Part shown: piece by piece, positions 3,046 to 59,675 of the stretch
Layout of the letters: each line of letters starts with the position of its first letter
Numbering within the stretch: position 1 is the stretch's first letter
Source of the DNA: a virus
Taxonomy: Duplodnaviria > Caudoviricetes
Reading direction: 5' to 3' (one strand)
IMG/VR virus record: IMGVR_UViG_3300009183_004565
Length of the DNA stretch: 64,000 bases
Position numbers and translations under genes: made by a program
The notes under the pieces: model-generated
What the model was told of the DNA's origin: nothing
Databases searched by the model: none
Seen by the model: only the letters and a program-made list of their open reading frames with translations

Positions 3046-3070
3046 ATCAAAAAATTTGCTATAATACAGG

Positions 3071-42786: not shown

Positions 42787-43812
42787 ATGAAGAAGTTTGT
42801 GACATTAGCAGCACTAGTATTTTCTACAGTAGTATCAGCAGCTGATTTAACAGGCGCTGGTGCAACTTTTCCCTACCCAATTTATGCCAAATGGGCAGAA
42901 GCATATAAAGCAGCAACAGGTATAGGACTCAATTATCAATCCATCGGTTCAGGTGGTGGTATTCGTCAAATCAAAGCCAAGACAGTGGACTTTGGTGCCA
43001 GTGATATGCCATTGAAAGTAGAGGAATTAGACAAAGAAGGCTTAATGCAATTCCCCGCAATCATTGGTGGTGTTGTTCCGGTATTCAACCTTGATGGTGT
43101 ACAACCTGGTGAATTGAAACTGACCAGTGATGTAATCGCTAATATTCATCTAGGTAAAATTACCAAATGGAATGATCGAGCAATTGCTGAATTGAATCCT
43201 GGTGTCACACTACCAGCAATCAATATCACTGTTGTGCATCGTGCAGATGGCTCAGGCACAACATTCATTTGGACAAACTATCTGAGCAAAGTAAACGCCG
43301 ACTTTAAGAATACTGTAGGCGAAGGCTCTGCTGTGAAATGGCCAACTGGTGTAGGCGGCAAAGGTAACGAAGGTGTTGCGGCCAACGTTCAACGTGTCAA
43401 AGGCGCTTTTGGTTACGTGGAATATGCCTACGCCAAGAAAAACAAAATTGCGTATGCACAATTGAAAAATCGTGATGGTAACTTTGTACAACCAAGTGAT
43501 GATACATTTAAAGCAGCCGCAGCAGGTGCTGATTGGAACAATGCTCCAGGAATGTATTTGTTACTGACAAACCAAACTGGCAAAGATTCATGGCCAGCAA
43601 CTGGTGCCAGTTTTATCATAATGCACAAGCAACAAGCAGATGCTTTAACTGGTCGTGCTATTCTAAAATTCTTTGATTGGTCGTATAAAAACGGCGCCAA
43701 GATGAGTGAAGATTTGGAATATGTACACATGCCTCAGTCAGTTATCAAGTTAGTTCAAGATAACTGGAAAAAAGAACTCAAAGGACCAGACGGTCAATCA
43801 ATTTGGAAATAA
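42787..43812 (+). CDS. pstS: Phosphate ABC transporter substrate-binding protein PstS
   Basis: GAGATFPYP, YQSIGSGGGI, DFGASD, RADGSGTT, GGKGNEG. Confidence 0.97.
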   Translation: MKKFVTLAALVFSTVVSAADLTGAGATFPYPIYAKWAEAYKAATGIGLNYQSIGSGGGIRQIKAKTVDFGASDMPLKVEELDKEGLMQFPAIIGGVVPVFNLDGVQPGELKLTSDVIANIHLGKITKWNDRAIAELNPGVTLPAINITVVHRADGSGTTFIWTNYLSKVNADFKNTVGEGSAVKWPTGVGGKGNEGVAANVQRVKGAFGYVEYAYAKKNKIAYAQLKNRDGNFVQPSDDTFKAAAAGADWNNAPGMYLLLTNQTGKDSWPATGASFIIMHKQQADALTGRAILKFFDWSYKNGAKMSEDLEYVHMPQSVIKLVQDNWKKELKGPDGQSIWK

Positions 43813-43817
43813 ATCAT

Positions 43818-43856
43818 TTGACATACTCTAACACTTTTAATATAGTGTTAGAGTAT
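43818..43856 (+). promoter_or_regulatory. TTGACA-17-TATAGT promoter inside a 13-bp perfect inverted repeat
   Basis: ATACTCTAACACT (43823-35) / AGTGTTAGAGTAT (43844-56). Confidence 0.6.
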
Positions 43857-43875
43857 CAACATAAAGGAAAATGTA

Positions 43876-45291
43876 ATGAAACAATTTAAAATACTAACAG
43901 CGGCTCTGGCAATAGCTATGATGTTTGCTGGCGCAGCACAAGCAGATGAGTACACTGACACGTTAGATATTCTTTTACAAAAAGGAATTCTCACCAAGCA
44001 AGAACACGCTGCCAAAATTGAAGCACATAAAGATCGCTTGGAAAACAAAGAATTCCAATCATCTAGAATTGACAAAGATGTTAAAGACAACAACAACTAT
44101 CGTTTGAGCAAAGTGAATGATGGCGCTGTAATGGAAAATGGTCTTGGGATCAAATCAAAAGATGGCAATACCACAGCACAGTTTACTGGTCGTATTCATA
44201 TGGACTATAGAAGTTATACTCAAACATTTAGTTCTGGTCAAAGCACTGATCCATATCAAGACACACTAGAAGTTCGTCGTGGACGTTTTGGTGTACGTGG
44301 ACAGATTGCCAAAGACTTCAAATATCTGCTACTAGCAAACTTTGGTAACGATGCTGGCGCAAGTTCAACTACATCAACAATTGATGAGTTTTGGTTTAAC
44401 TATGCCGCTATCACAGAAGCACAACTACAAGTTGGTACATTCAAGATGCCTTTCAGTCTTGAACAGTTGACCAGTTCCAACAACATTGACTTTATGGAAC
44501 GTAGCCTGATTGGTCAGACCGAAGGCGAATTTATTCCTGCCAAAGAAACTGGTGTGATGCTGCATGGTATTCCTAGAACAGGATTCACCTATGCGTTGGC
44601 ACTAAGTCGTGGTCGTGCTAACAAGAGTACTACAGTTGATGGTGTAGATGTTATTGGTCGTGTGACTACAAACGTTGCAGAAGTAATTCAGAACAAAGAC
44701 TTTGTAGCACACTTAGGTGCAGCATACAGCACAGGCAATGTCAAAACAGGTGTTGCTCCCGCTAGTGGTCGTACTGAAGGACGTCAACAAAGTGCATGGT
44801 TCACAGGTTCATCTGCAATGAGTGGTGATACTGCACGAACACGCCAGGGCATTGAAGCAGCATTTGCCTGGAAGGGTTTGAAAGTACAGGGTGAGCAATT
44901 CGTCTTTAACTACGATCCTGCTACAGGAACAGACAAAGAGATCAAGGGTCACTATGTTCAAGCAATTTATAACATCACAGGTGAGAGTCACAACTACAAA
45001 GATGGCGTATTTGGTTGGATCAAACCTAACTCTGCTTTCACAAGTGGTGGCAGAGGCGCATGGCAAGTTGGCGTAAGAGCCAGTGAGTTTAATGCCGAAG
45101 ATATTACAGTTGCAACTGGTAAAGCAAATCTAGCAACGTCATTGACTTACGGTATTACTTGGTTTCTGAATGACAATGTACGCATAATGGCAAACTATGT
45201 TGACACCAAATTCAACAAACCAGTTGGTACATCTGGTGCCCGTGTAGATGGTGAACAGGCAGTTATGCTCAGAGGTCAGATCAGTTTCTAA
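43876..45291 (+). CDS. Phosphate-selective porin OprO/OprP family
   Basis: Signal peptide, LLQKGILT periplasmic motif, RRGRFG, GTFKMPFSLEQLTS, FMERS, C-terminal RGQISF. Confidence 0.88.
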   Translation: MKQFKILTAALAIAMMFAGAAQADEYTDTLDILLQKGILTKQEHAAKIEAHKDRLENKEFQSSRIDKDVKDNNNYRLSKVNDGAVMENGLGIKSKDGNTTAQFTGRIHMDYRSYTQTFSSGQSTDPYQDTLEVRRGRFGVRGQIAKDFKYLLLANFGNDAGASSTTSTIDEFWFNYAAITEAQLQVGTFKMPFSLEQLTSSNNIDFMERSLIGQTEGEFIPAKETGVMLHGIPRTGFTYALALSRGRANKSTTVDGVDVIGRVTTNVAEVIQNKDFVAHLGAAYSTGNVKTGVAPASGRTEGRQQSAWFTGSSAMSGDTARTRQGIEAAFAWKGLKVQGEQFVFNYDPATGTDKEIKGHYVQAIYNITGESHNYKDGVFGWIKPNSAFTSGGRGAWQVGVRASEFNAEDITVATGKANLATSLTYGITWFLNDNVRIMANYVDTKFNKPVGTSGARVDGEQAVMLRGQISF

Positions 45292-45310
45292 TTTCAAAAT
45301 TAGAACAAAT

Positions 45311-45334
45311 AAAAGGCACTTAGGTGCCTTTTTT
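45311..45334 (+). terminator. Intrinsic terminator
   Basis: AAAAGGCAC-TTAG-GTGCCTTTT. Confidence 0.75.
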
Positions 45335-45340
45335 TACGAC

Positions 45341-45376
45341 TTTGTAATGGATTTGTAATCTTGCAAACCTTAAATA
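45341..45376 (+). promoter_or_regulatory. Pho-box-like tandem repeat plus TAAATA upstream of plcP-like gene
   Basis: TTGTAAT-GGAT-TTGTAAT (11-bp period), 12 nt gap, then TAAATA. Confidence 0.6.
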
Positions 45377-45381
45377 ATTAT

Positions 45382-46227
45382 ATGAGCAAGACCTATCGTA
45401 GTATTTTTATCAGTGATATACACCTTGGTACTAAAGACTGTAAGGCTGTTGAGCTAAACAATTTTTTAAAAAATAATACCTGTAACACGTTATATCTTGT
45501 TGGTGATATTATAGATGCATGGAAAATAAAACAGAACAAGTGGCGTTGGAAACAAAGTCATACAAATGTTATACGCCGCATACTGGGTCATGCCAAAAGA
45601 GATACTCGTATTATATATGTACTAGGTAATCACGATGAGTTTTTAAGACCGTTCCTGCAATACAATTTAAATTTTGGAATGGTAGAGTTACATAACCAAT
45701 ACGAGCATATAGGTGCCGACGGTAAACATTATCTAGTCACACACGGTGACCTGTTTGATGGTATTACTAGACTGGCACCTTGGCTTAGTATATTAGGAGA
45801 CAAAGCATATGATTTCATACTTACTCTCAATTCTAGATTCAATTGGCTCCGTCATAGACTTGGCTTTGGTTATTGGAGTCTTAGCCTTTATCTTAAACAA
45901 CGGGTTAAACGAGCTTTAGACTTTATATTCCAGTTTGAAAGAAATCTAGCCGCATACTGTAAAAAGCGTGGATTTGATGGTGTCATATGCGGACACATAC
46001 ATCACGCAGAAATCAAAGAAATAGATGGTGTAGTATACATGAACGACGGTGACTGGGTTGAGTCAATGACAGCATTAGTAGAACATCATAACGGTCGTTG
46101 GGAAATCATAACTTGGACGCAGGAGAAGGATGATGTGGTTGATGATATTGATGGCAGTACACATAAACGATCCACGGGACGTTCCAGCAAAAATGACCTT
46201 GGAGTTCCCGGATCAACAGACGTGTGA
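45382..46227 (+). CDS. Metallophosphoesterase, LpxH/PlcP (phospholipase C)-like
   Basis: SDIHLG, GDIID, GNHD, HGD, CGHIH, NDGDW. Confidence 0.85.
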   Translation: MSKTYRSIFISDIHLGTKDCKAVELNNFLKNNTCNTLYLVGDIIDAWKIKQNKWRWKQSHTNVIRRILGHAKRDTRIIYVLGNHDEFLRPFLQYNLNFGMVELHNQYEHIGADGKHYLVTHGDLFDGITRLAPWLSILGDKAYDFILTLNSRFNWLRHRLGFGYWSLSLYLKQRVKRALDFIFQFERNLAAYCKKRGFDGVICGHIHHAEIKEIDGVVYMNDGDWVESMTALVEHHNGRWEIITWTQEKDDVVDDIDGSTHKRSTGRSSKNDLGVPGSTDV

Positions 46228-46287
46228 ACAAAGTGCAAAGTCGATGACGTATTGGGTAAAATTTGAATCATTCAAGATTGATGTAAA

Positions 46288-47301
46288 ATGCGTAAAAAAA
46301 TATTAGTAATAACAGATAACACACCGGATCAGATTAATGGCGTGGTTACAACTTTTAAGAACCTTGAGACCATGGCTGTTCTGGACGGTTATAGTATTGT
46401 ATACCTTACTCCCCGGGAGTTCGTACATTTTGATTGCCCAGGCTACCCTGAAGTTAAATTTGCCTGGCCGTGGGGTCTGGGTAAAAAGATTAAGGAGATA
46501 TCTCCGGATTATATACACATCGCCACAGAAGGTCCTCTTGGTTTGTGTGCTAGACTTTATCTTGACCTCCGGGGCTATAGGTATAATACTAGTTACCATA
46601 CTAAGTTCCCTGAATTTCTAAAAAAGATATACAATGTTCCAGAATGTATTACCTGGGGTTACCTACGTTGGTTCCATAAACACTCAGGCATAGTGTTAAC
46701 TAACACTAATACCATGGTCAATGAATTACGCAGACATGGATTCGAAGGTGGAATCATTCCATGGACTCGCGGAGTCAATAGAGAAGAATTGCAGCCCACA
46801 CAAGCATGGCCTCATCCTAATCCAAGGCCCTTGATATTATACGTGGGCCGTGTTAGTCAAGAAAAAGACATTGATGTAGTATGTCGACTAATTGATACAT
46901 ATGACGTGGTTGTTGTTGGTGACGGACCTGACAGAAAAAGGCTAGAGCAAGAACATCCAGGGTGTCAATTTGTGGGATATAAAACTGGAAAAGAATTAGC
47001 AGACTGGTATGCAAGAGCAGATGTACTGGCTTTTCCTAGTAGAGTTGATACATTTGGTATAGTAATGATTGAAGCAATGAGTCTAGGTACTCCAGTAGCA
47101 GCATACCTAGTACCTGGACCGCAAGATATTATTCGTCAAGGTGTTTCGGGATACATGAGCGAACGATTAAGAGACGCCGTGGACTTATGCTTACATATTC
47201 CTAGAGCCAGAGTTGTAGCAGACAGTGAGCGTTGGACGTGGGAATTATGTTGGGTTATATTTCGTAACAATCTAGTAGATTTAAATCGGGTGCAACAATA
47301 G
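46288..47301 (+). CDS. GT4 glycosyltransferase, Agt-like glycolipid synthase
   Basis: QINGVVTT, HIATEGPLG, SYHTKFPE, DTFGIVMIEAMSLGTPV. Confidence 0.85.
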   Translation: MRKKILVITDNTPDQINGVVTTFKNLETMAVLDGYSIVYLTPREFVHFDCPGYPEVKFAWPWGLGKKIKEISPDYIHIATEGPLGLCARLYLDLRGYRYNTSYHTKFPEFLKKIYNVPECITWGYLRWFHKHSGIVLTNTNTMVNELRRHGFEGGIIPWTRGVNREELQPTQAWPHPNPRPLILYVGRVSQEKDIDVVCRLIDTYDVVVVGDGPDRKRLEQEHPGCQFVGYKTGKELADWYARADVLAFPSRVDTFGIVMIEAMSLGTPVAAYLVPGPQDIIRQGVSGYMSERLRDAVDLCLHIPRARVVADSERWTWELCWVIFRNNLVDLNRVQQ

Positions 47302-47656: not shown

Positions 47657-48301
47657 ATGAAACCTACCATTGCTATGTTCCTGTACCAGCCCCGAGCGTC
47701 TGTGCAATGTGGAAATGCAATGATGGAGGTTCTTTCTGATTACTACAAATTCAAAATTTTTACCAAGCAGGATATGGAAAAAGATTTCTTTGATGGAGTA
47801 GATATCGTGGCTTTTCCTGGCGGCGATGGGGATAGTGAAAGCTATCATTTTTTAATGAAGCATCACGAAAAACGTATACAAAACTTCGTACAAGACGGTG
47901 GTCGTTATTTAGGTATTTGTATGGGTGCTTATTGGGCCGGAAGCCATTACTTTGATATGCTAGACGGTGTAGATGCTGTACAGTATATTACACAACCCAA
48001 TACAGACACTCGCCGACCTCATGCCAAAGCCTGTCCTGTCAATTGGGACGGAGAAGATATGCGAATGTATTTTTACGATGGCTGTGCTTTAGCAGGTGAC
48101 GAGAGCAAGTTTGACACCATTGCTCGCTATGCAAACGGTGACCCAATGGCCATATTTCAAGACCGTATTGGAATCATGGGCTGTCACCCCGAAAGTGAAC
48201 AATGGTGGTATGAAATACATAACTATCTAAAACCGCATTATCATAACGGATATCATCATCAATTGTTGCTCGAATTTGTTGACCAATTAATGCAACAGTA
48301 G
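47657..48301 (+). CDS. Class I glutamine amidotransferase-like (BPL_N-type) protein
   Basis: FPGGDG, YLGICMGAY, GCHPE (Cys-His-Glu). Confidence 0.8.
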   Translation: MKPTIAMFLYQPRASVQCGNAMMEVLSDYYKFKIFTKQDMEKDFFDGVDIVAFPGGDGDSESYHFLMKHHEKRIQNFVQDGGRYLGICMGAYWAGSHYFDMLDGVDAVQYITQPNTDTRRPHAKACPVNWDGEDMRMYFYDGCALAGDESKFDTIARYANGDPMAIFQDRIGIMGCHPESEQWWYEIHNYLKPHYHNGYHHQLLLEFVDQLMQQ

Positions 48302-48329
48302 TATAATAATTTTTTAGAAGGAGAAGTCA

Positions 48330-48767
48330 ATGAGTAATCTCAAAGGTAGCAAAACAGCTGAATGTCTCAAAGAAGCATTTGCCGGAGAATCAATGGCAAA
48401 TCGTCGTTACTTGTATTTTGCAAACGGTTGCGATATTGCAGGTGAAAATGATCTAGCAGCATTGTTCCGTTCAACCGCCGAAGGTGAAACAGGACATGCA
48501 CATGGTCATATGGAGTATTTGATTGAAGGTGGTGCAGGCGAACCCGGTACAGGCTTACCAGGTAAGACACCACTTGAAATGTTACAAGCAGCAATTCATG
48601 GCGAAACACACGAGTACACAGACATGTATCCGGGTATGGCACGTACTGCCCGTGACGAAGGATTTGATGAAGTTGCTGATTGGTTTGAAACATTGGCCAA
48701 AGCAGAACGCAGTCACGCCAATCGTTATCAAAAAGCACTAGAGAAGTACACTGCTGATAATGCCTAA
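48330..48767 (+). CDS. Rubrerythrin/erythrin (di-iron domain only)
   Basis: [33 protein letters not shown]. Confidence 0.92.
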
Positions 48768-48801
48768 CATGGTGTGGCTAAAGTTTTAAACAGTTAAACA
48801 C

Positions 48802-48823
48802 AAGCCCCCATTGGGGGCTTTTT
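48802..48823 (+). terminator. Intrinsic terminator
   Basis: AAGCCCCC-ATT-GGGGGCTT followed by T run. Confidence 0.6.
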
Positions 48824-48836
48824 CGACGGAGATTAA

Positions 48837-49070
48837 ATGGAAACACAACTAAGAACAACAGTTAAAACCATAATATGGAGATTAATTTGTATTTTGGGTT
48901 TAGCTTACTGGACTGGTTTAGGCGGATCAATATTAATAAATATTTTTTTCATGACACTTTATTACATACATGAAAGAATTTGGTTGAGAATCAGTTGGGG
49001 TCGCTCCAGCCATTCATTAGATCAAAATAATGATTTTACGCATACTGACGCAGCGCAACATCGTGTATAG
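48837..49070 (+). CDS. DUF2061-like membrane protein
   Basis: KTIIWR...YYIHERIW..ISWG. Confidence 0.65.
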   Translation: METQLRTTVKTIIWRLICILGLAYWTGLGGSILINIFFMTLYYIHERIWLRISWGRSSHSLDQNNDFTHTDAAQHRV

Positions 49071-49117
49071 TAATCATACATACTAATGCAGTATGTCACT
49101 TTTTAAGGAGAAATAAA

Positions 49118-49192
49118 ATGGCATGGATTACACCAGCAGCACAAGATATGCGTTTTGGTTTTGAAATCACAATGTATATTGCAAATAGATAA
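49118..49192 (+). CDS. pqqA: Coenzyme PQQ precursor peptide PqqA (MAWITPAAQDMRFGFEITMYIANR)
   Basis: W-x2-P...MRFGFE-x3-Y-x-A-N-R consensus with E16/Y20; AAGGAG SD at 49105; own terminator; not in track. Confidence 0.92.
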   Translation: MAWITPAAQDMRFGFEITMYIANR

Positions 49193-49193
49193 T

Positions 49194-49218
49194 AAAAAAG
49201 GCTTCGGCCTTTTTTTTT
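49194..49218 (+). terminator. Intrinsic terminator after pqqA
   Basis: AAAAAAGGC-TTCG-GCCTTTTTT followed by T run. Confidence 0.85.
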
Positions 49219-49251
49219 ATAATTTTTTAATCAAATTGATAAATAATTATG

Positions 49252-49280
49252 TTGACTAGTCCTTAGTCATCTTGTATAAT
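49252..49280 (+). promoter_or_regulatory. Sigma70 promoter with palindromic operator candidate
   Basis: TTGACT-17-TATAAT; TGACTA-N5-TAGTCA over the -35 region. Confidence 0.6.
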
Positions 49281-49362
49281 TCAATTAACAGAATTAGTCT
49301 TTCTGTTTTGCACTAAAAACAAATCCACACAAAACCATTTTATATCAAGGAGAACAATTTAA

Positions 49363-50607
49363 ATGCGTTTAATTCCATCATTAGTAGTGGCACTCGCTGC
49401 GGCCTGTGTTACCTCTGTTGCATTGGCCGATAGACCTTTGCAACCAATCGTAGAAGTATCAAAGAAAGGTACAAAGTGTAAGCAAGATCCCAACTGTTTT
49501 AATCGGTTGAGTCCTGCTATCAAGCCTGTTGCCAAGGCCAAACCAGGCGAGTTAATTAGAGTCCAAACAAGGGATGCGGTGGATGCCGAACTAGACATCA
49601 ATGCAAAACCCAAAGATGTTACCGCAATTGACCTAAGTTTAGTACACCCAATGACTGGTCCAATTTATATCGAAGGCGCAAAGCGCGGTGATGTATTGGC
49701 AGTTAAGATTGTAGACGTTGAGCCAGAAAAACACGGCTGGACCACAATCATTCCAGGATTCAACTTCCTGAGTGACATGTTCCCAGAGCCGTACATTGCC
49801 AACTGGCGTTTGAATCGCCTTGAGGCAGTGAGCGAGCAAATTCCTGGTGTACGTATTCCTATGCGAGCATTTACAGGTATCATTGGTGTTATGCCTGGTG
49901 AACCAGAAATTGATAAATGGTTGGCTCGTGAAACTCAATTGGCAGATGCCGGCGGCGCAGCATTAAAACCATTACCAAGTGGAGCTCACCCTGCTAACAT
50001 TTGCGGACCTAACGGTTCACACAAAGACAAGTGCTTGAGATCTGTACCACCACGTGAAAACGGCGGTAACATGGATGTCAAACAGATGGTTGTCGGAACT
50101 ACTTTACTCTTTCCATGTTTTGTAGATGGATGCGGACTGTACATCGGTGACGTACACTATGCACAAGGCGATGGCGAAGTAGCAGGTACTGCAATCGAAA
50201 TGAATGGTGTTGTTACTGTTGAAACCAGTATTCGTAAGGGTGGTGCTGCTACACTTAAATCGATTCAATTCGAAGGCGGTTCGCAGTTGAAGGCATTGGA
50301 ACCAGATGCTTTCCATGCTACCATTGGATTCCCACTTAAGAATGCCGGCGAAATCCCACCACACTTGACTTACTTAGACAGCAAGAAAATTGGTCCTCTT
50401 ACCAATCTGTCACAAGACTTGACTCAAGCAGCACGTAGCAGTTTGATTCAAATGATTGATTGGCTACAACAAACCAAAGGTCTAACCAAAGAACAGGCCT
50501 ATGTTGTAACCAGCGTTGCTTGCGATCTGCGTATCAGCAATGTAGTTGACGTACCAAACTATGCTGTGACCACGATCTGCCCGTTGGAAATTTTTGAATC
50601 CAAGTAA
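49363..50607 (+). CDS. Acetamidase/formamidase family protein with signal peptide
   Basis: HPMTGPIYIEGA..GDVLAV, ENGGNMD, GDVHYAQGDGEV.GTAIE; N-terminal hydrophobic signal ending VALA. Confidence 0.9.
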   Translation: MRLIPSLVVALAAACVTSVALADRPLQPIVEVSKKGTKCKQDPNCFNRLSPAIKPVAKAKPGELIRVQTRDAVDAELDINAKPKDVTAIDLSLVHPMTGPIYIEGAKRGDVLAVKIVDVEPEKHGWTTIIPGFNFLSDMFPEPYIANWRLNRLEAVSEQIPGVRIPMRAFTGIIGVMPGEPEIDKWLARETQLADAGGAALKPLPSGAHPANICGPNGSHKDKCLRSVPPRENGGNMDVKQMVVGTTLLFPCFVDGCGLYIGDVHYAQGDGEVAGTAIEMNGVVTVETSIRKGGAATLKSIQFEGGSQLKALEPDAFHATIGFPLKNAGEIPPHLTYLDSKKIGPLTNLSQDLTQAARSSLIQMIDWLQQTKGLTKEQAYVVTSVACDLRISNVVDVPNYAVTTICPLEIFESK

Positions 50608-50662
50608 TTGATTGTCAACCACAAGGGAGGAAAATTTCCTCCTTTATTTTGTAGGAAAAATA

Positions 50663-51235
50663 ATGAAACTCACAAAATTGTTTATTGTTACCATGTTGGT
50701 AGCAAGTACTTCAGTCTCTGCACATACACCTTACGGACAATGGGATGTTTTTCGTAGTAGATTTTTACAGATAGTTACTTCTAAAAGTGACCTGCCCGGA
50801 GACACTATTGGCGAAGAATGGGCGTCTGATCTAAGAAGTAAACTGCCAGAGTCAAGAGCTTTGGTAAGTCGTGCCGGCAGTATGGAACATTTGGCCAGTT
50901 TGATTAAAACTGATCAAGCAAAGTTGGCAATCATTTCTTATGCCGATGCCAAAGCTATACAATCAGGCAAGCCGCCTTTTGCAGAATTTAATCCAATACC
51001 GTTACAAGTACTAGTTGACAACGGAACCCACTTACTAGTGGCAAGAGATAACTTGCCTTTATATCACGGTTATCTAATAACATCTGCTTTGATGCAAGAA
51101 CCAAATTGGTTACGTGTTAAAATTCCCTCTAATGGTAAATTTGGAATTCCATTACATCCTGGAGCAAAAGCAACTGCCGATGGAGAAAAGCTAGTTGCGC
51201 CTGTGGCCAAAGAGCAAACCGTACATAATCATTAA
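50663..51235 (+). CDS. Periplasmic solute-binding-like (TAXI-like) protein
   Basis: Signal peptide ending VSA-HTPYGQW; C-terminal IPLHPGA typical of TAXI proteins. Confidence 0.5.
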   Translation: MKLTKLFIVTMLVASTSVSAHTPYGQWDVFRSRFLQIVTSKSDLPGDTIGEEWASDLRSKLPESRALVSRAGSMEHLASLIKTDQAKLAIISYADAKAIQSGKPPFAEFNPIPLQVLVDNGTHLLVARDNLPLYHGYLITSALMQEPNWLRVKIPSNGKFGIPLHPGAKATADGEKLVAPVAKEQTVHNH

Positions 51236-51237
51236 AA

Positions 51238-52449
51238 ATGTATAAACTAGAGCAAAACGACAAAATTGGCTATTACACCGTTGGCACAAAAAAGTTTTAT
51301 GCCAAGGTTGAAGCATTAATCGAAGCCACCAAAGTTAATCAATTTCCGCAGTGGCATTTTAATACTGATGTTTATGGTTCTATAAAATGGGATCATGATC
51401 CCCAAGTTTCATTGCGTGAACTATACAGGCTTAGAGCAGTACAATTACGAGAAAAATACGACTGGATCAGAATTGAAGCTTCCGGTGGTGGTGACAGTAC
51501 CACTGCACTATTGAGCTTTTTGAATAATGGCATTCATATAGACGAGGTAGTGTTTAGATATCCAAAGACAGGAGAAAAAAATGTACACGGAGATCCGTTT
51601 AATACCAAATGTGAAAATACATTGAGTGAATGGGATTTTGCAGCAAAACCTTTACTAAACTGGATCTCCACTCATCATCCTCGAGTAAAAATTACAGTGC
51701 ATGATTTCACTGACAGCATGGTCAATGCTTCATACGAGGAAGATTGGGTATTTAGATCAAAGGATTATTTTTTACCTAGTCATCCTTTTAAACACGATCC
51801 TGTTGGGTATGCAGATCACCGCAAAGATGCTGATGCGGGTAAAAAGATTGCAGTATTGTACGGAATAGACAAACCAAGAGTATGCGTTAAGGATAATAAA
51901 TGGTATGTTTATTTTATGGATCTACAGGCCAATCATTCAAATTCTGTAGTTAACGAGTACAATAACATTACCAACGAATATTTTTATTGGACTCCAGATT
52001 TACCAGAAATTGTACACAAACAAGCACACATGATTAAAAATTGGTTCATGTTGCCACAAAATCAATCGTTGCAACATCTAGTAAAGTGGCCCAATAACAG
52101 TATCGCAGCTCGTACTACATATGAACAAGTTGTTAAACCTATCTTGTATCCAGATTATGATCCAGCTACATTTCAAACCATAAAGCCAACAAATAGTTTT
52201 TACAATGAGATGGATTATTGGTTTTATGTAAATTTCAAAGAAACTCGAGCATATCAAATTTGGAAAGCAGGACTCAAATTCCTAGTAGATAATATTGACC
52301 AGAAATATATGTATAAAGAAATGGGAGAGCCAATGGGATTTGTGGGTTTTCTAAGTCCATTCTATTATCTAGGACCAGCTACTTATGTTGATACCGGGGT
52401 AAACAATTATGCTAGATTTGATCAACCACCAACAGAAAATATAACTTAA
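51238..52449 (+). CDS. PP-loop (adenine nucleotide alpha-hydrolase)-like protein
   Basis: ASGGGDS motif; G.DKP. Confidence 0.5.
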   Translation: MYKLEQNDKIGYYTVGTKKFYAKVEALIEATKVNQFPQWHFNTDVYGSIKWDHDPQVSLRELYRLRAVQLREKYDWIRIEASGGGDSTTALLSFLNNGIHIDEVVFRYPKTGEKNVHGDPFNTKCENTLSEWDFAAKPLLNWISTHHPRVKITVHDFTDSMVNASYEEDWVFRSKDYFLPSHPFKHDPVGYADHRKDADAGKKIAVLYGIDKPRVCVKDNKWYVYFMDLQANHSNSVVNEYNNITNEYFYWTPDLPEIVHKQAHMIKNWFMLPQNQSLQHLVKWPNNSIAARTTYEQVVKPILYPDYDPATFQTIKPTNSFYNEMDYWFYVNFKETRAYQIWKAGLKFLVDNIDQKYMYKEMGEPMGFVGFLSPFYYLGPATYVDTGVNNYARFDQPPTENIT

Positions 52450-53622: not shown

Positions 53623-53706
53623 GCCTGGGTGGTGTAATGGTAGCCACGCTGGTCTTAGAAGCCAGTGTCGAAAGACGTGCGAGTTCGAGTCTCGCCCCAG
53701 GCACCA
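53623..53706 (+). tRNA. tRNA-Leu(TAG)
   Basis: Cloverleaf, anticodon loop CT-TAG-AA, long variable arm, CCA end. Confidence 0.95.
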
Positions 53707-53777
53707 TATTAAAACACATTTCGAACGGTGAAAGTCCGTCCCAAAGATTTATCTAGGATAGTGTGTTTCAATATGGT

Positions 53778-54205
53778 AGAGACACAAGGGAGTGGGTAGG
53801 CCCGCCGCGTTAGCACCACGTAAGGCATCCTTGTTATACTTAATGTTGGAGTAAGGACCAACCTACCAACCAAACGTTCCAGCGTCACTGGATACTCTGA
53901 CCCAGAGGATGAGAAGTGGTATGACAACCACGGGTGGTACCGTTCCAACCGAAAGTGCGCTGGCAATGCGAGAACGGACCCTGTTGTGGAGCGGGTGGAG
54001 GCCGTAGCAATACGGTATAATTACCGCCAGGGGTCGCAGAGCATTTAACTTGAGTTATGGCAAGAGGTCCATAAACGGGAGTGTAACCCGATGGATACAG
54101 AACATAAGTATTCAACGTGAATGAGCCTTGTTTGACCGTAGAGTTTAGGCAAGAAACACATAACGAAACGGCAGGCGTTAAACAGGATTACAATCGCCTA
54201 GGTAA
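53778..54205 (+). ncRNA. Candidate large structured ncRNA (GOLLD/ROOL-like context)
   Basis: GC-richer stretch between tRNAs with no credible ORF, many complementary segments and possible pseudoknots; boundaries approximate. Confidence 0.55.
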
Positions 54206-54216
54206 TCAATAATTAT

Positions 54217-54291
54217 GCACCGTTCGTCTATCGGTTAGGACACCCGCCTTTCACGCAGGTAAGAGGAGTTCGATTCTCCTACGGTGTACCA
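54217..54291 (+). tRNA. tRNA-Glu(TTC)
   Basis: Anticodon loop CT-TTC-AC, CCA end. Confidence 0.93.
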
Positions 54292-54300
54292 AGTTTTAAA

Positions 54301-54375
54301 GCGGGCGTAACTCAGAGGTAGAGTGTCAGCCTTCCAAGCTGTTCGTCGCAGGTTCGAATCCTGTCGCCCGCTCCA
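54301..54375 (+). tRNA. tRNA-Gly(TCC)
   Basis: Anticodon loop CT-TCC-AA, U discriminator, CCA end. Confidence 0.95.
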
Positions 54376-54384
54376 ATTTCCCAA

Positions 54385-54413
54385 TTGACCATAATTCCTT
54401 TTTATCATATAAT
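54385..54413 (+). promoter_or_regulatory. Early sigma70 promoter cassette
   Basis: TTGACC-17-TATAAT. Confidence 0.7.
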
Positions 54414-54442
54414 ATGTGTAGTTCAATTACAAGGAGTTTTAC

Positions 54443-55678
54443 GTGGGTACAGCAATTTCAACAAAATCAATGAATGCAGTAAAAAATGCTTACATTGATT
54501 GGCGATTTGATCAACCCAACGATTTTAATTTACTAGGACAACCAGTTAACTCTTTGGCAGCAATAAAGCCCATGATTAACCAGATCAAGTCCGACGGATT
54601 TACGGGTATTGTTTTAAACACCAATGTGCCCATCGATCCCGAAACTGGTCGATTGACTCTTTATGATCCTGCTCCTGGTGCGTTTATTACTAATAAAAAT
54701 GTACCTGCGGACACTTGGGCTGTGATAAAACATGCTAAAAAAAGTGGTTTAGCTGTTACACTTAATCTTAATATTGTTGATTATAGAAATGATAAGGCAC
54801 TTACTGCTGACTCTGTAGGCAGTGGTTTTTCAACTGATACCTTTTTTAAAGATGTTGCCAGTTATGAAGCCATGCTTGCTGGTAAAGCTAAATCAAGTGG
54901 CGTTAATGTAATAGGTATTGGCGTGTGTCAATATGGGCTAGACACTGATGCATATAAAGAACAATGGCAAACTATTATTAATGCTATACGTAAAAATTAC
55001 TCAGGTAAACTGACATACTCATCCGGAGAATATAGTACTCCGGTCTGGTCTATGGTTGATATTGTTAGCACCGTAGGTTGGGATAATGTAGGCGGAGCAC
55101 TAGACAGAATGAACTCTTTAGCAGATACCTATCGTAAACCAGTATATATAGATAGTGTTACTGCTGGTGGTGGCGAAGGACAAGCAGCAAGGATTAGAGA
55201 TATAATAAAGGCGTCGATCATTGACCGTAAAGAAGATCTAGCCGGACTATCATTTCATGAATTTGCACCATGGCAACAATCCAACTGGATTGTAAACCCG
55301 CAAACAGAAAACGATAAACAATGGTTGGCCTCAAATAATTATTCAAATGACCTTTATAACAAAGAAGCAGCAAATGCGTTAACAAACTGGTTTAATTATT
55401 CTACAGCTCCTATCAACGGGTCAAAAAAGAATGATAGACTTAAAGTATATGCCGGAGATAAAACAGTAGATGGTGGCAAAGGCGTTGATACTGTAGTGGT
55501 ATTAAATAAAGCAAAGGACTGTCAATTGTCTTTTGACAGTCCGGGAAGTTTTACATTAGTAAACAACACAGAAGGTACTAACAAGTTACTTAACTGTGAA
55601 TATATCCAATTTATGGATACACGGGTTAGTTTAATTGGACGCCAAGACTATAGCCAATACGGTTGGACGTCATGGTAA
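54443..55678 (+). CDS. GH113/GTA-type TIM-barrel protein with RTX-like C-terminus
   Basis: FF..A.YE.MLA..A...GV...IG; W..II..IR..YSGKLTY; GGKGVDTV tail. Confidence 0.55.
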   Translation: MGTAISTKSMNAVKNAYIDWRFDQPNDFNLLGQPVNSLAAIKPMINQIKSDGFTGIVLNTNVPIDPETGRLTLYDPAPGAFITNKNVPADTWAVIKHAKKSGLAVTLNLNIVDYRNDKALTADSVGSGFSTDTFFKDVASYEAMLAGKAKSSGVNVIGIGVCQYGLDTDAYKEQWQTIINAIRKNYSGKLTYSSGEYSTPVWSMVDIVSTVGWDNVGGALDRMNSLADTYRKPVYIDSVTAGGGEGQAARIRDIIKASIIDRKEDLAGLSFHEFAPWQQSNWIVNPQTENDKQWLASNNYSNDLYNKEAANALTNWFNYSTAPINGSKKNDRLKVYAGDKTVDGGKGVDTVVVLNKAKDCQLSFDSPGSFTLVNNTEGTNKLLNCEYIQFMDTRVSLIGRQDYSQYGWTSW

Positions 55679-55711
55679 TTTAATTGCAATTTTAGCAACA
55701 TTATCTTTTGG

Positions 55712-55774
55712 TTGACCAAAAAGATCCATTTTGCTATAATAGCAGTATAGTAATTAACAAGGAGCAGCAAAATG
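55712..55774 (+). promoter_or_regulatory. Early promoter plus RBS cassette
   Basis: TTGACC-17-TATAAT...AACAAGGAGCAGCAAAATG. Confidence 0.75.
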
Positions 55775-56095
55775 AAGCTACTAATCACTACCCAAGTTTA
55801 CGAAAACTACGCATGGAACCAAGACGGTACTACCATTGGCACCGGCGATGCGGCTTACTGGAAAGCCAAGGGTGGTAACGATTATGTTATCAGCAATTTT
55901 GATCCCACTCGTTATGCGCCGGGTATAGTAGTTGAACTCGTTCGTTCCAAAGTTGAATCCAACAACGACTACTTTCGTGAACACATTTTGGATTGGTCTG
56001 TTGTAGAAGACGATTACCTTACCGAATTCGAGCGTAGTCAACTGGAGTACGAAGGTCGGATTACTTATCCGGCTCAAGAATTAGAATTAGCATAA
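55772..56095 (+). CDS. Phage hypothetical protein
   Basis: MKLLITTQVYENYA...YWKAKGG..EFE.SQL. Confidence 0.65.
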   Translation: MKLLITTQVYENYAWNQDGTTIGTGDAAYWKAKGGNDYVISNFDPTRYAPGIVVELVRSKVESNNDYFREHILDWSVVEDDYLTEFERSQLEYEGRITYPAQELELA

Positions 56096-56111
56096 TTATA
56101 AGGAGAACAAA

Positions 56112-56675
56112 ATGCCAGCAGTATTTCTTGTAAGTGACACGCATTTTGGTCACGCTGGCGTTTGCCGCTTCTTGCGTAACGACGGTGTAACTAAACTGCG
56201 TCCTTGGGATAATCCTGAGGAAATGGACGAGTTTATGGTCAAGGCCTGGAACGAGCGTGTTCGGCCCAACGACAAAGTGTACCATCTTGGTGACGTTGTT
56301 ATCAACAGACGGGCACTTGCTACACTTGAACGTCTAAACGGTGACAAAGTTTTAATACGTGGTAACCACGATATCTTCCGTGACGACGAATATAGAAAGT
56401 ACTTCCGTGAACTACGTGCGTATCATGTCATGAACGGAATGATACTGAGCCATATTCCCATACACGAAGAAAGTCTGGGTCGCTTTGGTACCAACATACA
56501 CGGACATCTACATAGCAACAGAGTTATGAAAGATGGTGCAGTTGACGTTAGATACCATTGCGTCTGCGTAGAACAAACAGACTTTGCGCCCATCTTGTTT
56601 GAAGATGTTATCAAGCGTATCACGGCAGAAGGTGGTAGTATAGGCTTCAAAAACGGTAACGGCCCTACAATGTAA
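56112..56675 (+). CDS. Calcineurin-like phosphoesterase
   Basis: SDTHFGH, HLGD, RGNHD, SHIP, HGHLH. Confidence 0.88.
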   Translation: MPAVFLVSDTHFGHAGVCRFLRNDGVTKLRPWDNPEEMDEFMVKAWNERVRPNDKVYHLGDVVINRRALATLERLNGDKVLIRGNHDIFRDDEYRKYFRELRAYHVMNGMILSHIPIHEESLGRFGTNIHGHLHSNRVMKDGAVDVRYHCVCVEQTDFAPILFEDVIKRITAEGGSIGFKNGNGPTM

Positions 56676-56715
56676 TTGTTGACAGGGCTGTTACTAACAT
56701 ATATACTAAGAACAT

Positions 56716-56807
56716 GGAGCGTTGGCCGAGGGGTCGAAGGCAGCGGTTTGCTAAACCGTCGTATTGAGTAATCAGTACCATTAGTTCGAATCTAATACGC
56801 TCCGCCA
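56716..56807 (+). tRNA. tRNA-Ser(GCT)
   Basis: Anticodon loop TT-GCT-AA, long variable arm, G discriminator, CCA end. Confidence 0.93.
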
Positions 56808-56825
56808 AGTTTACCAGGAGGCAAC

Positions 56826-56984
56826 ATGGGCGCCAGTGACGTTCTAAAAGCAGCATTAGAAAAAAAGAAACAACAAACAACCTCAGTAGCAAAATCTAAA
56901 AACAATACCGCAGGTAAAAATGCTGTAGGTAATCAAGTAACCAGTAATAAACCAACCAAGAAATCCTCGGGTCGAGGACGATAG
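56826..56984 (+). CDS. Small basic protein (52 aa)
   Basis: AGGAGG SD; MGASDVLKAALEKKK...SSGRGR; not in track. Confidence 0.6.
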   Translation: MGASDVLKAALEKKKQQTTSVAKSKNNTAGKNAVGNQVTSNKPTKKSSGRGR

Positions 56985-56987
56985 TAG

Positions 56988-58349
56988 ATGACCAAAATTG
57001 CATCTGTACTCTACGACAACATTCCTGAAAACTTAAATGACATTAGAAATAATCTAATAGATCTTACCAAATTCAAGATGCAAGGGATGTTGCCAATTGA
57101 CATCATTAAAACCAATAAACTAAGCGACACGCTAGATAATATCAAGCAGGATGTGGATTGGGCAGTGGTAATTGCTGCAGGACATTATCTTGAAGGTCAA
57201 TATCTAATACAAGAAACTGTTGATCACGCCATAAAAGAAAATGTACCACTGGCCTGCCATATCCTGGCCAAAGGTGGTTACTTTCATTTTCATCAGCAAT
57301 GGTTCGCTATACACTTACCAACATGGCGGGCGGTTGGATCGCCAAGATTTGAAGAATCCCGCGGTAGGACCTTGACTGTTAAAGAAACTGTGCGTGACCC
57401 AAACAATGTACACGATGACTATACTCCGTGGTGGTTAAAACCCGGTGATTCAGATAAAACATATAGAACTGACTACGGGTACTTCGGGTTGAATGTGATT
57501 GAAGCATTGATTAATCACAATCATGCAATCACAAACATACCGCAGAATATACGTAATCGTAAATGTTATCCTTATCCAGATGCAAATCATCAAGAGATTA
57601 GAGAAATAATCAACAATCCAAAAAAAGAGTTTCCTAAAGAAACCACAAACTCATCTGTATGGTGGTTTAAACAATTGTTGGATAGATTAACTGATCAATT
57701 GGATCGCGGCTTTTATGTATTAAACACTGAACCATTTACATTAAATTCTCGAGTTGATAATGCTAAATTTGATTGTTTTGTGGGAGTATGCGGTGGAATT
57801 AAACCTGCTTGTATTGTTGGACGAGATAACTTTATAGCACCGTCATCGGTACACTTGTTTGATATAAGTGACGCAGCACTTGATTGGCAAAAGTATCTAA
57901 TAGAACATTGGGACGGCGATTTTTCAACGTTTGAGTCTGTGTTTAAATCTTTTATGGACAAGAACCCAGGATATTACCCCATGTATCATTCCCATCTTTC
58001 AATAGAAGAAAATATTGGGTGGTACTTTAAGAGTGGAAACTTAACTAAAGAAGAATTTCAAATTAGATGGAACAAGTATCGTACTTCGGAATTTAATTTT
58101 CATAAATTAGATTTGTTGGCACCAGACGCTGCAGACCAAATATTATCATTAATTGGTGATAAAAAATGTTGTTACCTCTGGGCCAGTAATGCATTTTCTA
58201 TGGATTATTTAATGTTCTATAAAACTGAAAAGGGTTCTGAACTAATTGGCGAAACCTTTAAACGAACTCTTCAGAACAAATCATCTACAGAAATATTCTA
58301 CGAAGAATGTAATCAAATAAAGTACATTAGGCCTGTTGGTAACTGTTAA
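56988..58349 (+). CDS. Hypothetical protein
   Basis: 453-aa ORF, no confident motif. Confidence 0.6.
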   Translation: MTKIASVLYDNIPENLNDIRNNLIDLTKFKMQGMLPIDIIKTNKLSDTLDNIKQDVDWAVVIAAGHYLEGQYLIQETVDHAIKENVPLACHILAKGGYFHFHQQWFAIHLPTWRAVGSPRFEESRGRTLTVKETVRDPNNVHDDYTPWWLKPGDSDKTYRTDYGYFGLNVIEALINHNHAITNIPQNIRNRKCYPYPDANHQEIREIINNPKKEFPKETTNSSVWWFKQLLDRLTDQLDRGFYVLNTEPFTLNSRVDNAKFDCFVGVCGGIKPACIVGRDNFIAPSSVHLFDISDAALDWQKYLIEHWDGDFSTFESVFKSFMDKNPGYYPMYHSHLSIEENIGWYFKSGNLTKEEFQIRWNKYRTSEFNFHKLDLLAPDAADQILSLIGDKKCCYLWASNAFSMDYLMFYKTEKGSELIGETFKRTLQNKSSTEIFYEECNQIKYIRPVGNC

Positions 58350-59025: not shown

Positions 59026-59080
59026 ATTTGATATTGACTGTAATATATTTATATGCTACAATTTGTTTTAAATAGTTAAA

Positions 59081-59165
59081 GCCCGGGTGGAGAAATGGTA
59101 TACTCAGGAGACTTAAAATCTCCCGCTCACAAGGCATGCCGGTTCGAGTCCGGCCCCGGGCACCA
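59081..59165 (+). tRNA. tRNA-Leu(TAA)
   Basis: Anticodon loop CT-TAA-AA, variable arm, CCA end. Confidence 0.95.
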
Positions 59166-59170
59166 AACAA

Positions 59171-59245
59171 CTGGCTATAGTATAATGGATAATACAGGGG
59201 ATTTCTACTCCCTCGATGTGGGTTCGATTCCTGCTAGCCGGACCA
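59171..59245 (+). tRNA. tRNA-Arg(TCT)
   Basis: Anticodon stem GGGGA/TCCCT, loop TT-TCT-AC, A20 identity element, CCA end. Confidence 0.88.
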
Positions 59246-59253
59246 AGTTTTAT

Positions 59254-59331: not shown

Positions 59332-59357
59332 GGTTAAATACATAGAAGGGAGCCACT

Positions 59358-59663: not shown

Positions 59664-59675
59664 AATATAAAGTAT

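What the first reader, a model, noticed from the sequence alone, without database searches (positions are those of the whole stretch)
49105..49218. Stand-alone phage pqqA (PQQ precursor peptide) missed by the ORF track
Seen: AAGGAG SD, the 24-codon ORF MAWITPAAQDMRFGFEITMYIANR, then a UUCG terminator, so it is a self-contained unit. No pqqB/C/D/E genes are in the window. Established: PqqA is the ribosomal precursor whose Glu and Tyr (ExxxY) are cross-linked by PqqE/PqqD, and it is consumed stoichiometrically to make PQQ for periplasmic methanol, alcohol and sugar dehydrogenases. Inference: the phage supplies only the consumed substrate to keep host quinoprotein respiration running. This is a very small auxiliary metabolic gene that length-filtered annotation would miss.
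Basis: partly seen in the sequence, partly recalled or inferred. Interest (0 to 1): 0.88.

Follow-up and report, generated by a model that had tools for sequence, protein, structure and literature searches.

The report
Phage-borne PQQ precursor gene pqqA
A large freshwater phage carries an intact 24-codon copy of pqqA, the small peptide that bacteria use up to make the redox cofactor PQQ. The gene is genuine and under selection, but viral pqqA was reported in 2020 and this scan has met it many times.

Summary
A 24-codon ORF at 49118-49192 (+) has an AAGGAG ribosome-binding site 7 nt upstream and a GGCC/UUCG/GGCC terminator after it. It scores well above the curated cut-offs of both PqqA models (Pfam PF08042 36.3 vs 21.1 bits; TIGR02107 37.6 vs 20).

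It is stand-alone: no pqqB-E in the window, in the flanks of 80 related viral loci, or in five large related viral contigs, four of which carry a T4-type capsid gene.

At least 586 IMG/VR stretches encode a PqqA. The 80 examined all have an intact ORF, nearly all with a Shine-Dalgarno-like purine run upstream. Purifying selection is strong (pN/pS 0.22).

The closest cellular peptides belong to freshwater Burkholderiales. Five such genomes have PqqE and PQQ alcohol dehydrogenases and often keep pqqA unlinked from pqqBCDE.

The gene sits in a compact cassette: upstream box, -10, 5' hairpin, SD, ORF, terminator. The box is related to a palindrome that marks pqqA in those bacteria.

Best reading: the phage supplies the consumed precursor to host PQQ enzymes. 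This function is inferred, not shown.

It is not new. Coutinho et al. 2020 reported viral PqqA, and this scan holds 55 earlier notes on phage pqqA in at least 37 genomes. Verdict: a new member of a known kind, of moderate interest.

The parts
49028..49042 (+). Upstream box (TAATGATTTT...). It is a half-site remnant of the TNATGA-WWW-TCATNA palindrome found upstream of pqqA in phages and in Burkholderiales. Its centre lies 31 nt before the -10 element.
   Evidence: A 10-nt core ATGAWWWTCA (up to 1 mismatch) lies 60-140 nt upstream of pqqA in 43 of 86 viral loci (background 0.053 per window) and 42 of 79 bacterial loci (background 0.018). In five bacterial genomes the 16-mer occurs 10 times, 7 of them directly upstream of pqqA. 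Spacing from box to a -10-like hexamer peaks at 30-33 nt. The box is not enriched elsewhere in the window. In the window the second half-site is degenerate.
49066..49071 (+). -10-like hexamer TATAGT. There is no good -35 at 16-18 nt.
   Evidence: Read from the sequence. A TAnAAT hexamer sits 3-5 nt before the leader hairpin in the closest viral cassettes. The simple sigma-70 scan did not call it, because no -35 is present. This part is inferred.
49078..49096 (+). Predicted 5' stem-loop of the pqqA mRNA: a 7-bp stem (ACAUACU / AGUAUGU) with a 5-nt loop.
   Evidence: Found in the minimum-energy and centroid folds of 49074-49224 (z = -3.0). A hairpin at this position recurs in most viral cassettes with different stem sequences: 73 distinct leaders, mean z -1.6, 53% below -1.5.
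49105..49110 (+). Shine-Dalgarno AAGGAG, 7 nt before the ATG.
   Evidence: Nearly all of the 80 viral homologues show a comparable purine-rich SD-like run (read by eye).
49118..49192 (+). pqqA, 24 codons plus stop. Glu16 and Tyr20 form the E-x3-Y cross-link motif.
   Evidence: PF08042 36.3 bits and TIGR02107 37.6 bits. The C-terminal 13 residues are identical to Burkholderiales PqqA. The viral copies show purifying selection.
49194..49220 (+). Intrinsic terminator: G+C stem, UUCG loop, U run.
   Evidence: A terminator-like hairpin with a T tail follows 40 of 66 distinct viral homologues within 80 nt.

Best explanation
This is a genuine, selected, phage-borne copy of pqqA, carried as a compact host-derived mini-gene of about 190 bp. 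The phage is a large T4-like freshwater phage whose host is most likely a PQQ-producing betaproteobacterium of the order Burkholderiales.

Proposed mechanism (inferred). Host RNA polymerase transcribes a short mRNA of about 150 nt that starts with a stem-loop and ends at an intrinsic terminator. The exposed SD drives translation of the 24-residue peptide. The host's own PqqD/PqqE then cross-link Glu16 to Tyr20, and the host protease, PqqB and PqqC finish PQQ.

One peptide is destroyed for each PQQ made. A phage copy would therefore keep or raise precursor supply during infection, sustaining periplasmic PQQ-dependent alcohol dehydrogenases and the energy they deliver.

Shown here: identity, integrity, selection, stand-alone state, viral context, and pathway enzymes in candidate host genomes. 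Inferred: transcription start, regulation through the upstream box, and actual conversion to PQQ.
For: 1. Identity. Both curated PqqA models are exceeded. E16 and Y20 are present. The core RFGFEITMYIANR is identical to cellular PqqA of Burkholderiales.

2. Selection on the peptide. Among 87 viral copies there are 74 distinct DNA sequences. Third-codon-position entropy is 1.12, against 0.45 and 0.28 at positions 1 and 2. Pooled pN/pS is 0.22. The invariant Arg, Gly, Thr and Pro are each written with four to six synonymous codons.

3. Breadth. At least 586 IMG/VR stretches encode a relative. All 80 fetched have an intact 23-25 codon ORF, nearly all with an SD-like run. The gene is also in Methylophilales phages Melnitz, Venkman, P19250A, MEP301 and MEP401/402.

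4. Stand-alone state. No pqqB-E in the window or within 6 kb in any of the 80 viral loci. No PqqB, PqqC, PqqE or PQQ alcohol dehydrogenase above cut-off in five related viral contigs of 100-172 kb, one of them complete with terminal repeats.

5. Viral setting. Four of those five contigs carry T4 Gp23 and share many accessory genes with the window at 55-85% identity. The window's structural protein matches only phages. There are tail, exonuclease and endonuclease PHROG hits, 8 tRNAs and a tmRNA. G+C is an even 0.34-0.44, while the homologous bacterial loci are mostly 0.48-0.70, with five at 0.42-0.44.

6. Not a chimera. An independent metagenome run has a 1865-nt contig, about 96.5% identical, that spans rubrerythrin, the 77-aa ORF, pqqA and fmdA.

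7. A host able to use it. Five genomes with the closest PqqA all have PqqE at 536-544 bits, 2-4 PQQ alcohol dehydrogenases, and FmdA 71-75% identical to the phage's. In four of the five, pqqA lies on a different contig from pqqE, so unlinked pqqA is normal there.

8. Literature. Methylotrophs carry several pqqA copies, including highly expressed unlinked ones. That paper cites a study in which a cell extract converted purified PqqA into PQQ (PMC9851590).
Against: No experiment shows that a phage PqqA becomes PQQ. The host is unknown, and the peptide is too short to place it by phylogeny.

The rest of this phage genome could not be searched, so pqqB-E or a quinoprotein elsewhere in it is not excluded. 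Only relatives were tested.

In the window the upstream palindrome is reduced to one half-site, and the promoter is inferred, not mapped.

Expression evidence is weak. Contigs from two lake RNA libraries match the ORF at 90% identity or more, but they come from relatives, and DNA carry-over cannot be excluded.
Confidence: 0.75

Rival explanations
1. Decoy. The phage peptide binds host PqqD/PqqE unproductively and shuts PQQ synthesis down, for example to redirect resources or to block a PQQ-dependent process harmful to the phage.
For: A stand-alone leader peptide could in principle titrate the PqqD chaperone. No tool result supports inhibition specifically.
Against: Both cross-linked residues and the whole C-terminal core are identical to host PqqA. 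The N-terminal differences fall at positions that also vary among hosts. Selection conserves the same residues as in cells, which is what a substrate predicts. A blocker would be expected to lose Glu or Tyr.
Confidence: 0.06
2. Substrate for a different pathway. The peptide is processed by phage-encoded enzymes elsewhere in the genome (for example radical SAM enzymes) into a product other than host PQQ.
For: Other first-stage notes, which are unchecked, mention several radical SAM genes elsewhere in this genome. Two relatives hold radical SAM proteins with weak PqqE similarity, 17-25 bits.
Against: Those hits are far below the PqqE cut-off of 381 bits. Small phages of 35-44 kb with no such enzymes carry the same gene. 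The peptide is unchanged from the host type.
Confidence: 0.07
3. Passenger DNA. The ORF is a recently captured piece of host DNA, or an attachment-site remnant, with no function for the phage.
For: The cassette keeps host-like upstream signals. In three bacterial loci pqqA lies 2-4 kb from an fmdA operon, as it does in the window.
Against: There are hundreds of viral copies, all of those inspected intact, with heavy synonymous turnover and pN/pS 0.22. Composition is fully adapted to the phage. The gene occurs in many different neighbourhoods and in lytic T4-like phages.
Confidence: 0.04
4. Mis-assembly. The window is a chimeric or misbinned host contig, and the gene is simply bacterial.
For: The surrounding 10 kb is rich in host-like genes: pstS, a porin, rubrerythrin and formamidase.
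Against: G+C is even across the window. Phage-only homologues and PHROG hits are present. An independent contig spans the junctions. Related viral contigs with Gp23 carry the same accessory genes.
Confidence: 0.02

Closest known systems
Viral PqqA of Lake Baikal methylotroph phages (population VP_266; Coutinho et al. 2020, Microbiome 8:163, PMC7678222)
   Same: A virus-encoded PqqA precursor peptide, proposed as an auxiliary metabolic gene that supports PQQ-dependent dehydrogenases of a freshwater betaproteobacterial host.
   Different: That virus also encodes methanol dehydrogenase and was assigned to Methylophilaceae. Here no quinoprotein was found in the window or in relatives. The peptide is of the ...EITMYIANR type, found in Oxalobacteraceae, Comamonadaceae and Thauera-like genomes, not the ...EVTMYVMNK type seen in all the cultured Methylophilales phages. 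The phage is a large T4-like one.
Unannotated pqqA of cultured Methylophilales phages (Melnitz, Venkman, P19250A, MEP301, MEP401/402)
   Same: A stand-alone ORF of 23-24 codons, usually with an SD-like run and often a terminator, and no pqqB-E. It is missed by annotation. Identity to the window peptide is 59-68%.
   Different: Different peptide subtype and marine or LD28 hosts. Most are small sipho- or podoviruses. In Melnitz an antisense ORF is annotated over the gene. The Melnitz paper does not mention pqqA.
Unlinked (orphan) pqqA copies of Burkholderiales chromosomes
   Same: Peptide 88% identical with an identical 13-residue core. Also a single small gene away from pqqBCDE, with an upstream palindromic box, a leader hairpin and an SD. 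Multiple and orphan pqqA copies are documented in methylotrophs (PMC9851590).
   Different: The cellular copies sit in genomes that also encode PqqB-E, mostly at 48-70% G+C. The phage copy is at about 40% G+C, its box is reduced to a half-site, and its leader is shorter (box about 89 nt before the ATG, against 120-135 nt).
Operon-linked PqqA (pqqABCDE; PF08042 / TIGR02107)
   Same: Same family, same E-x3-Y motif, same length class.
   Different: It is not followed by pqqB, whereas 36 of 80 bacterial loci have pqqBCDE immediately downstream.

Membership tests
PqqA (Pfam PF08042; NCBIfam TIGR02107 equivalog) | Score above the curated family cut-offs | tested here: met
   36.3 bits against 21.1; 37.6 bits against 20.
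PqqA (Pfam PF08042; NCBIfam TIGR02107 equivalog) | Conserved Glu and Tyr, four residues apart (E-x3-Y), that are cross-linked to form PQQ | tested here: met
   E16-I-T-M-Y20 in the translation. Both columns are invariant in the alignment with phage and bacterial PqqA.
PqqA (Pfam PF08042; NCBIfam TIGR02107 equivalog) | Small translated peptide of about 20-40 residues with its own translation signals | tested here: met
   24 codons, with AAGGAG 7 nt upstream.
PqqA (Pfam PF08042; NCBIfam TIGR02107 equivalog) | Genomic linkage to pqqBCDE. This is typical but not universal. | tested here: not met
   None in the window, in 80 viral flanks or in five related viral contigs. Cellular genomes with unlinked pqqA exist, so this feature is not strictly defining.
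PqqA (Pfam PF08042; NCBIfam TIGR02107 equivalog) | Binding by PqqD and cross-linking by PqqE, with conversion to PQQ | not testable with these tools
   The peptide is shorter than the 30-residue minimum of the complex predictor. No solved structure matches it by sequence.
Viral auxiliary metabolic gene | Lies in a bona fide virus genome, not in host DNA | tested here: met
   PHROG tail, structural and nuclease hits; phage-only homologues; relatives with Gp23; even G+C; an independent contig across the junctions. The whole genome was not available.
Viral auxiliary metabolic gene | Host-derived gene for host metabolism, maintained by selection in viruses | tested here: met
   88% identity to Burkholderiales PqqA; pN/pS 0.22 across viral copies.
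Rfam RF02980 freshwater-2 RNA (considered for the leader) | Score at or above the gathering score, with the stems formed | tested here: not met
   23.3 bits against 49.9. The match rests on the SD/AUG end, and the stems are not formed. No hit at gathering score in 29 related viral loci.

The most novel reading that the evidence does not exclude
Phage pqqA travels as a complete host-type regulatory cassette. Many viral copies keep the same palindromic operator (TNATGA-WWW-TCATNA, centred about 43 nt before the predicted start) that marks pqqA in Burkholderiales genomes. In those genomes the operator is nearly specific to pqqA, and it also precedes a TonB-dependent receptor gene and a cytochrome c peroxidase-like gene.

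If so, the phage copy is wired into an undescribed host PQQ regulon. Precursor supply would then be the step of PQQ synthesis that hundreds of phage lineages, far beyond methylotroph phages, have independently chosen to reinforce.
Probability: 0.3. Interest if true: 0.6.

Novelty: new member of a known kind. Interest (0 to 1): 0.4.

Why it matters
PQQ is needed by periplasmic alcohol, methanol and sugar dehydrogenases, and its synthesis destroys one PqqA peptide per cofactor. A phage that carries only this peptide points to precursor supply as the weak link of PQQ synthesis in an infected cell.

The gene is below the length cut-off of common gene callers, so it is largely invisible in viral catalogues. 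At least 586 IMG/VR stretches encode it, and the GenBank phage records checked here leave it unannotated.

This example extends the pattern from small phages of methylotrophs to a large T4-like freshwater phage whose peptide matches non-Methylophilaceae Burkholderiales. It also adds a shared host-phage upstream box that could be tested as a regulatory site. The basic idea is already published, so this is extension and better description, not discovery.

Tried and rejected
1. Whole-genome search for pqqB-E or xoxF. No genome is held for this window. An exact look-up of its FmdA protein found no contig on record. None of the 80 IMG/VR loci listed has a peptide identical to the window's (best 96%).

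2. Megablast of 48000-52000 against GenBank phages: no match.

3. Rfam freshwater-2 as the identity of the leader: rejected, see the membership test. A literature search for the motif name returned only unrelated papers.

4. T4 late promoter TATAAATA. There are 3 in the window against 5.9 expected, and none near pqqA.

5. The upstream box as a general phage promoter. It is not enriched in the window: 107 matches against 120 expected.

6. nhmmer profile of the bacterial upstream regions against the viral loci. It gave only two marginal hits, so homology of the whole leader is not detectable. Only the short box is shared.

7. tmRNA DNA similarity to five candidate host genomes. Only a 36-nt conserved piece matched, which does not narrow the host.

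8. Solved structures by sequence: none.

9. Complex prediction with PqqD was not attempted, because the peptide is below the 30-residue minimum.

11. 'Acinetobacter phage MD-2021a' hits are bacterial contigs with pqqABCDE. They served only as a source of PqqB-E queries.

12. Parts of the stretch without cover in the RNA-library contigs are not interpreted.

Full report
**1. Observation**

AAGGAG lies at 49105-49110. An ATG at 49118 opens a 24-codon frame that ends in a double TAA at 49190-49195. A G+C stem with a TTCG loop and a T run follows at 49194-49220.

The peptide exceeds the curated cut-offs of both PqqA models: PF08042 at 36.3 bits against 21.1, and TIGR02107 at 37.6 against 20. It has the Glu-x3-Tyr pair (E16, Y20) from which PQQ is built. 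It is the only such ORF in the window.

**2. Is it stand-alone, and is this a phage?**

tblastn with PqqB, C, D and E finds nothing in the window (best E 0.3). The same queries hit 36 of 80 bacterial pqqA loci, which serves as a positive control.

No whole genome is held for the window, so the phage setting was tested indirectly:
- Nearly all ORFs lie on one strand.
- G+C is an even 0.34-0.44.
- There are 8 scattered tRNA genes and a tmRNA.
- PHROG hits include tail protein, virion structural protein, exonuclease and endonuclease.
- The 546-residue structural protein at 818-2455 matches only phages, namely Pelagibacter phage Mosig and jumbo phages of Xanthomonas, Stenotrophomonas and Ralstonia.

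The region around pqqA is an island of host-like accessory genes: pstS, a phosphate porin, two metallophosphoesterases, a GT4 glycosyltransferase, rubrerythrin and formamidase. It has the phage's composition.

A contig from an independent metagenome run covers 48680-50537 at about 96.5% identity. It bridges rubrerythrin, a 77-residue ORF, pqqA and fmdA.

**3. Relatives**

tblastn against GenBank phages finds the same small ORF in 10 true phage records, covering every cultured Methylophilales phage the search returned: Melnitz (four isolates), Venkman, P19250A, MEP301 and MEP401/402, plus one uncultured spring podovirus. It is unannotated in six of them. In the four Melnitz isolates and the spring podovirus a 'hypothetical protein' lies under the match; the two inspected are antisense ORFs.

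The two 'Acinetobacter phage MD-2021a' hits are bacterial contigs with pqqABCDE.

Of these, 586 encode a relative.

All 80 fetched loci have an intact ORF of 23-25 codons, nearly all with an SD-like purine run. None has pqqB-E within 6 kb.

Five large contigs of 100-172 kb carry peptides 83-96% identical to the window's. None has PqqB, PqqC, PqqE or a PQQ alcohol dehydrogenase above cut-off, and four of the five carry the T4 capsid protein Gp23.

Many of the viral loci share other accessory genes with the window at 55-85% identity, but in shuffled order. pqqA is thus a persistent small module in a fluid region.

**4. Selection**

Across 87 viral copies there are 74 distinct DNA sequences and 45 distinct peptides. 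Entropy is 1.12 bits at third codon positions, against 0.45 and 0.28 at first and second positions. Pooled pN/pS is 0.22. The invariant Arg, Gly, Thr and Pro are each spelled with four to six synonymous codons.

The peptide is therefore what is conserved, not an RNA or a DNA site. This argues against passenger DNA or an attachment-site remnant.

**5. Likely host**

A scan of one genome per prokaryotic species found 566 cellular relatives. The best 80 are almost all freshwater Burkholderiales MAGs and isolates labelled Oxalobacteraceae, Burkholderiaceae, Comamonadaceae, Limnohabitans or Thauera. Their peptides are 79-88% identical, with an identical 13-residue C-terminal core. Several MAG titles, such as 'uncultured Bifidobacterium' and 'Bordetella parapertussis', are evidently mislabels.

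The window's tmRNA is of the betaproteobacterial type, at 156.7 bits. Related DNA is held mainly by lake and freshwater metagenomes. Only two DNA holders (one labelled freshwater) and two RNA libraries were laid.

Five genomes with the closest peptide, each 2.4-3.1 Mb, were examined:
- All have PqqE at 536-544 bits.
- All have 2-4 PQQ-dependent alcohol dehydrogenases.
- All have an FmdA 71-75% identical to the phage's.
- In four of the five, pqqA lies on a different contig from pqqE.

Unlinked pqqA is therefore normal in the candidate host group. The exact host remains open. Related cassettes also carry peptide variants intermediate towards the ...EVTMYVMNK type of the cultured Methylophilales phages, so a Methylophilaceae host is not excluded.

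**6. Anatomy of the unit**

Upstream regions were compared across loci. They show a recurring layout:
- a box (viral consensus TAATGA-WWW-TCAyTA);
- a TAnAAT hexamer about 31 nt after the box centre;
- a hairpin starting a few bases later;
- a U-rich stretch, the SD, the ORF and a terminator.

In the window these elements lie at 49028-49042, 49066-49071, 49078-49096, 49105-49110, 49118-49192 and 49194-49220. The predicted transcript folds with the SD and AUG unpaired, at z = -3.0. The leader hairpin recurs with different stem sequences in most cassettes.

The 10-nt core of the box occurs 60-140 nt upstream of pqqA in 43 of 86 viral loci and 42 of 79 bacterial loci. That is roughly 10-fold and 30-fold above background. 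The bacterial form is the fuller palindrome TCATGA-WWW-TCATGAG.

In the five bacterial genomes the 16-mer occurs only ten times, and its reversed control never. Seven of the ten lie directly upstream of pqqA. Two others precede a TonB-dependent receptor gene next to pqqA and a cytochrome c peroxidase-like gene; both identities were read by eye from the translation.

The fixed distance to the -10 puts the box centre near -43. That is the classical position of an activator that replaces a -35 element (general knowledge of class II promoters). This step is inference.

In the window only one half-site survives, and the box is not a general motif of the phage. A profile of the whole bacterial leader does not detect the viral leaders, so only the short box is demonstrably shared.

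**7. Mechanism and rivals**

The best-supported reading is precursor supply. The phage makes the peptide, and the host's PqqD/E, protease, PqqB and PqqC turn it into PQQ. Supporting knowledge:
- PqqA is consumed stoichiometrically.
- Methylotrophs keep several pqqA copies, some unlinked and highly expressed.
- PMC9851590 cites a study in which purified PqqA added to a cell extract was converted to PQQ.

A decoy role is unlikely, because the phage peptide keeps exactly the residues a substrate needs. Use by phage-encoded enzymes cannot be excluded for this genome, but it does not fit the small phages that carry the same gene.

Expression is only hinted at. Contigs from two lake RNA libraries match the ORF (49129-49192), and one joins the rubrerythrin end directly to the pqqA SD region. 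These come from relatives, and DNA carry-over is possible.

**8. Novelty**

Viral PqqA was reported from Lake Baikal in 2020 as a proposed auxiliary metabolic gene (PMC7678222). Literature searches found no other paper describing it in phages, and the Melnitz paper does not mention it.

This scan has found it before on other DNA: 55 notes in at least 37 genomes, several with follow-up reports that reached the same conclusion.

What this window adds is modest:
- a large T4-like freshwater phage with a peptide of the non-Methylophilaceae Burkholderiales type;
- counts showing how widespread and how well conserved the viral gene is;
- the shared host-phage upstream box.

Verdict: real, correctly interpreted, a new member of a known kind, of moderate interest.

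Noticed in passing
window 38089-38469 (+): A betaproteobacterial-type tmRNA (RF01850, 156.7 bits) that also matches the permuted tmRNA model. ARAGORN did not report it. Similar tmRNAs lie near pqqA in at least 12 related viral loci.
   Followed up: partly
window 48330-48767 (+): A rubrerythrin gene lies just upstream of the pqqA unit. Rubrerythrin lies within 6 kb of pqqA in 14 of 80 viral loci. Eight are 73-85% identical to the window's and six are only 33-37% identical, so the pairing recurs across lineages. A link to peroxide released by PqqC, or to protection of PqqE, is speculation.
   Followed up: partly
window 49252-52449 (+): A strong sigma-70-like promoter (TTGACT-17-TATAAT, 49252-49280) precedes a formamidase/acetamidase gene and two genes without a Pfam family. 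FmdA is 71-75% identical to Burkholderiales FmdA. In three bacterial loci (L088, L095, L110) an unlinked pqqA lies 2-4 kb from the homologous fmdA operon.
   Followed up: partly
window 48837-49070 (+): A 77-residue predicted membrane protein with a weak DUF2061 match (16.7 bits, below cut-off). Its 3' end overlaps the pqqA box and -10. Homologues lie beside pqqA in L019 and L020 and within a few kb in L016 and L048. One RNA-library contig joins 48709 directly to 49112, so a relative lacks this ORF.
   Followed up: partly
window 42787-47301 (+): A phosphate-type accessory island: PstS-like binding protein, phosphate-selective porin O/P, metallophosphoesterase and GT4 glycosyltransferase. The same genes recur at 53-85% identity in pqqA-bearing viral loci.
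   Followed up: no
window 3133-5019 (+): A full-length DnaK (Hsp70), about 65% identical to bacterial DnaK over its whole length and 48-57% identical to copies in uncultured huge phages and Lak megaphages. A 78% identical copy lies in viral locus L029.
   Followed up: no
L179-L188 (bacterial genomes G006-G010): The palindrome TCATGA-WWW-TCATKAG occurs 10 times in five genomes, and its reversed control 0 times. Seven occurrences lie directly upstream of pqqA. One lies before a TonB-dependent receptor gene next to pqqA (L183) and one before a cytochrome c peroxidase/MauG-like gene (L182); both identities were read by eye from the translation. This may mark an undescribed PQQ regulon.
   Followed up: partly
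L001 2967-3072 (Melnitz-1, MZ577095.1): The GenBank record annotates a hypothetical protein on the minus strand (2967-3062) that overlaps the unannotated plus-strand pqqA (3001-3075). pqqA is flanked there by tRNA genes.
   Followed up: yes
L005 (CAKLQF020000010.1) and the other 'Acinetobacter phage MD-2021a' records: Records filed as phage are bacterial contigs carrying ppk, pqqABCDE, dnaK and hscA. They would contaminate any census of phage genes.
   Followed up: partly
window 53623-59749 (+): Eight tRNA genes (Leu x2, Glu, Gly, Ser, Arg, Cys, Trp) are interspersed with protein genes downstream of the pqqA region. In relatives pqqA often directly abuts large tRNA arrays.
   Followed up: no
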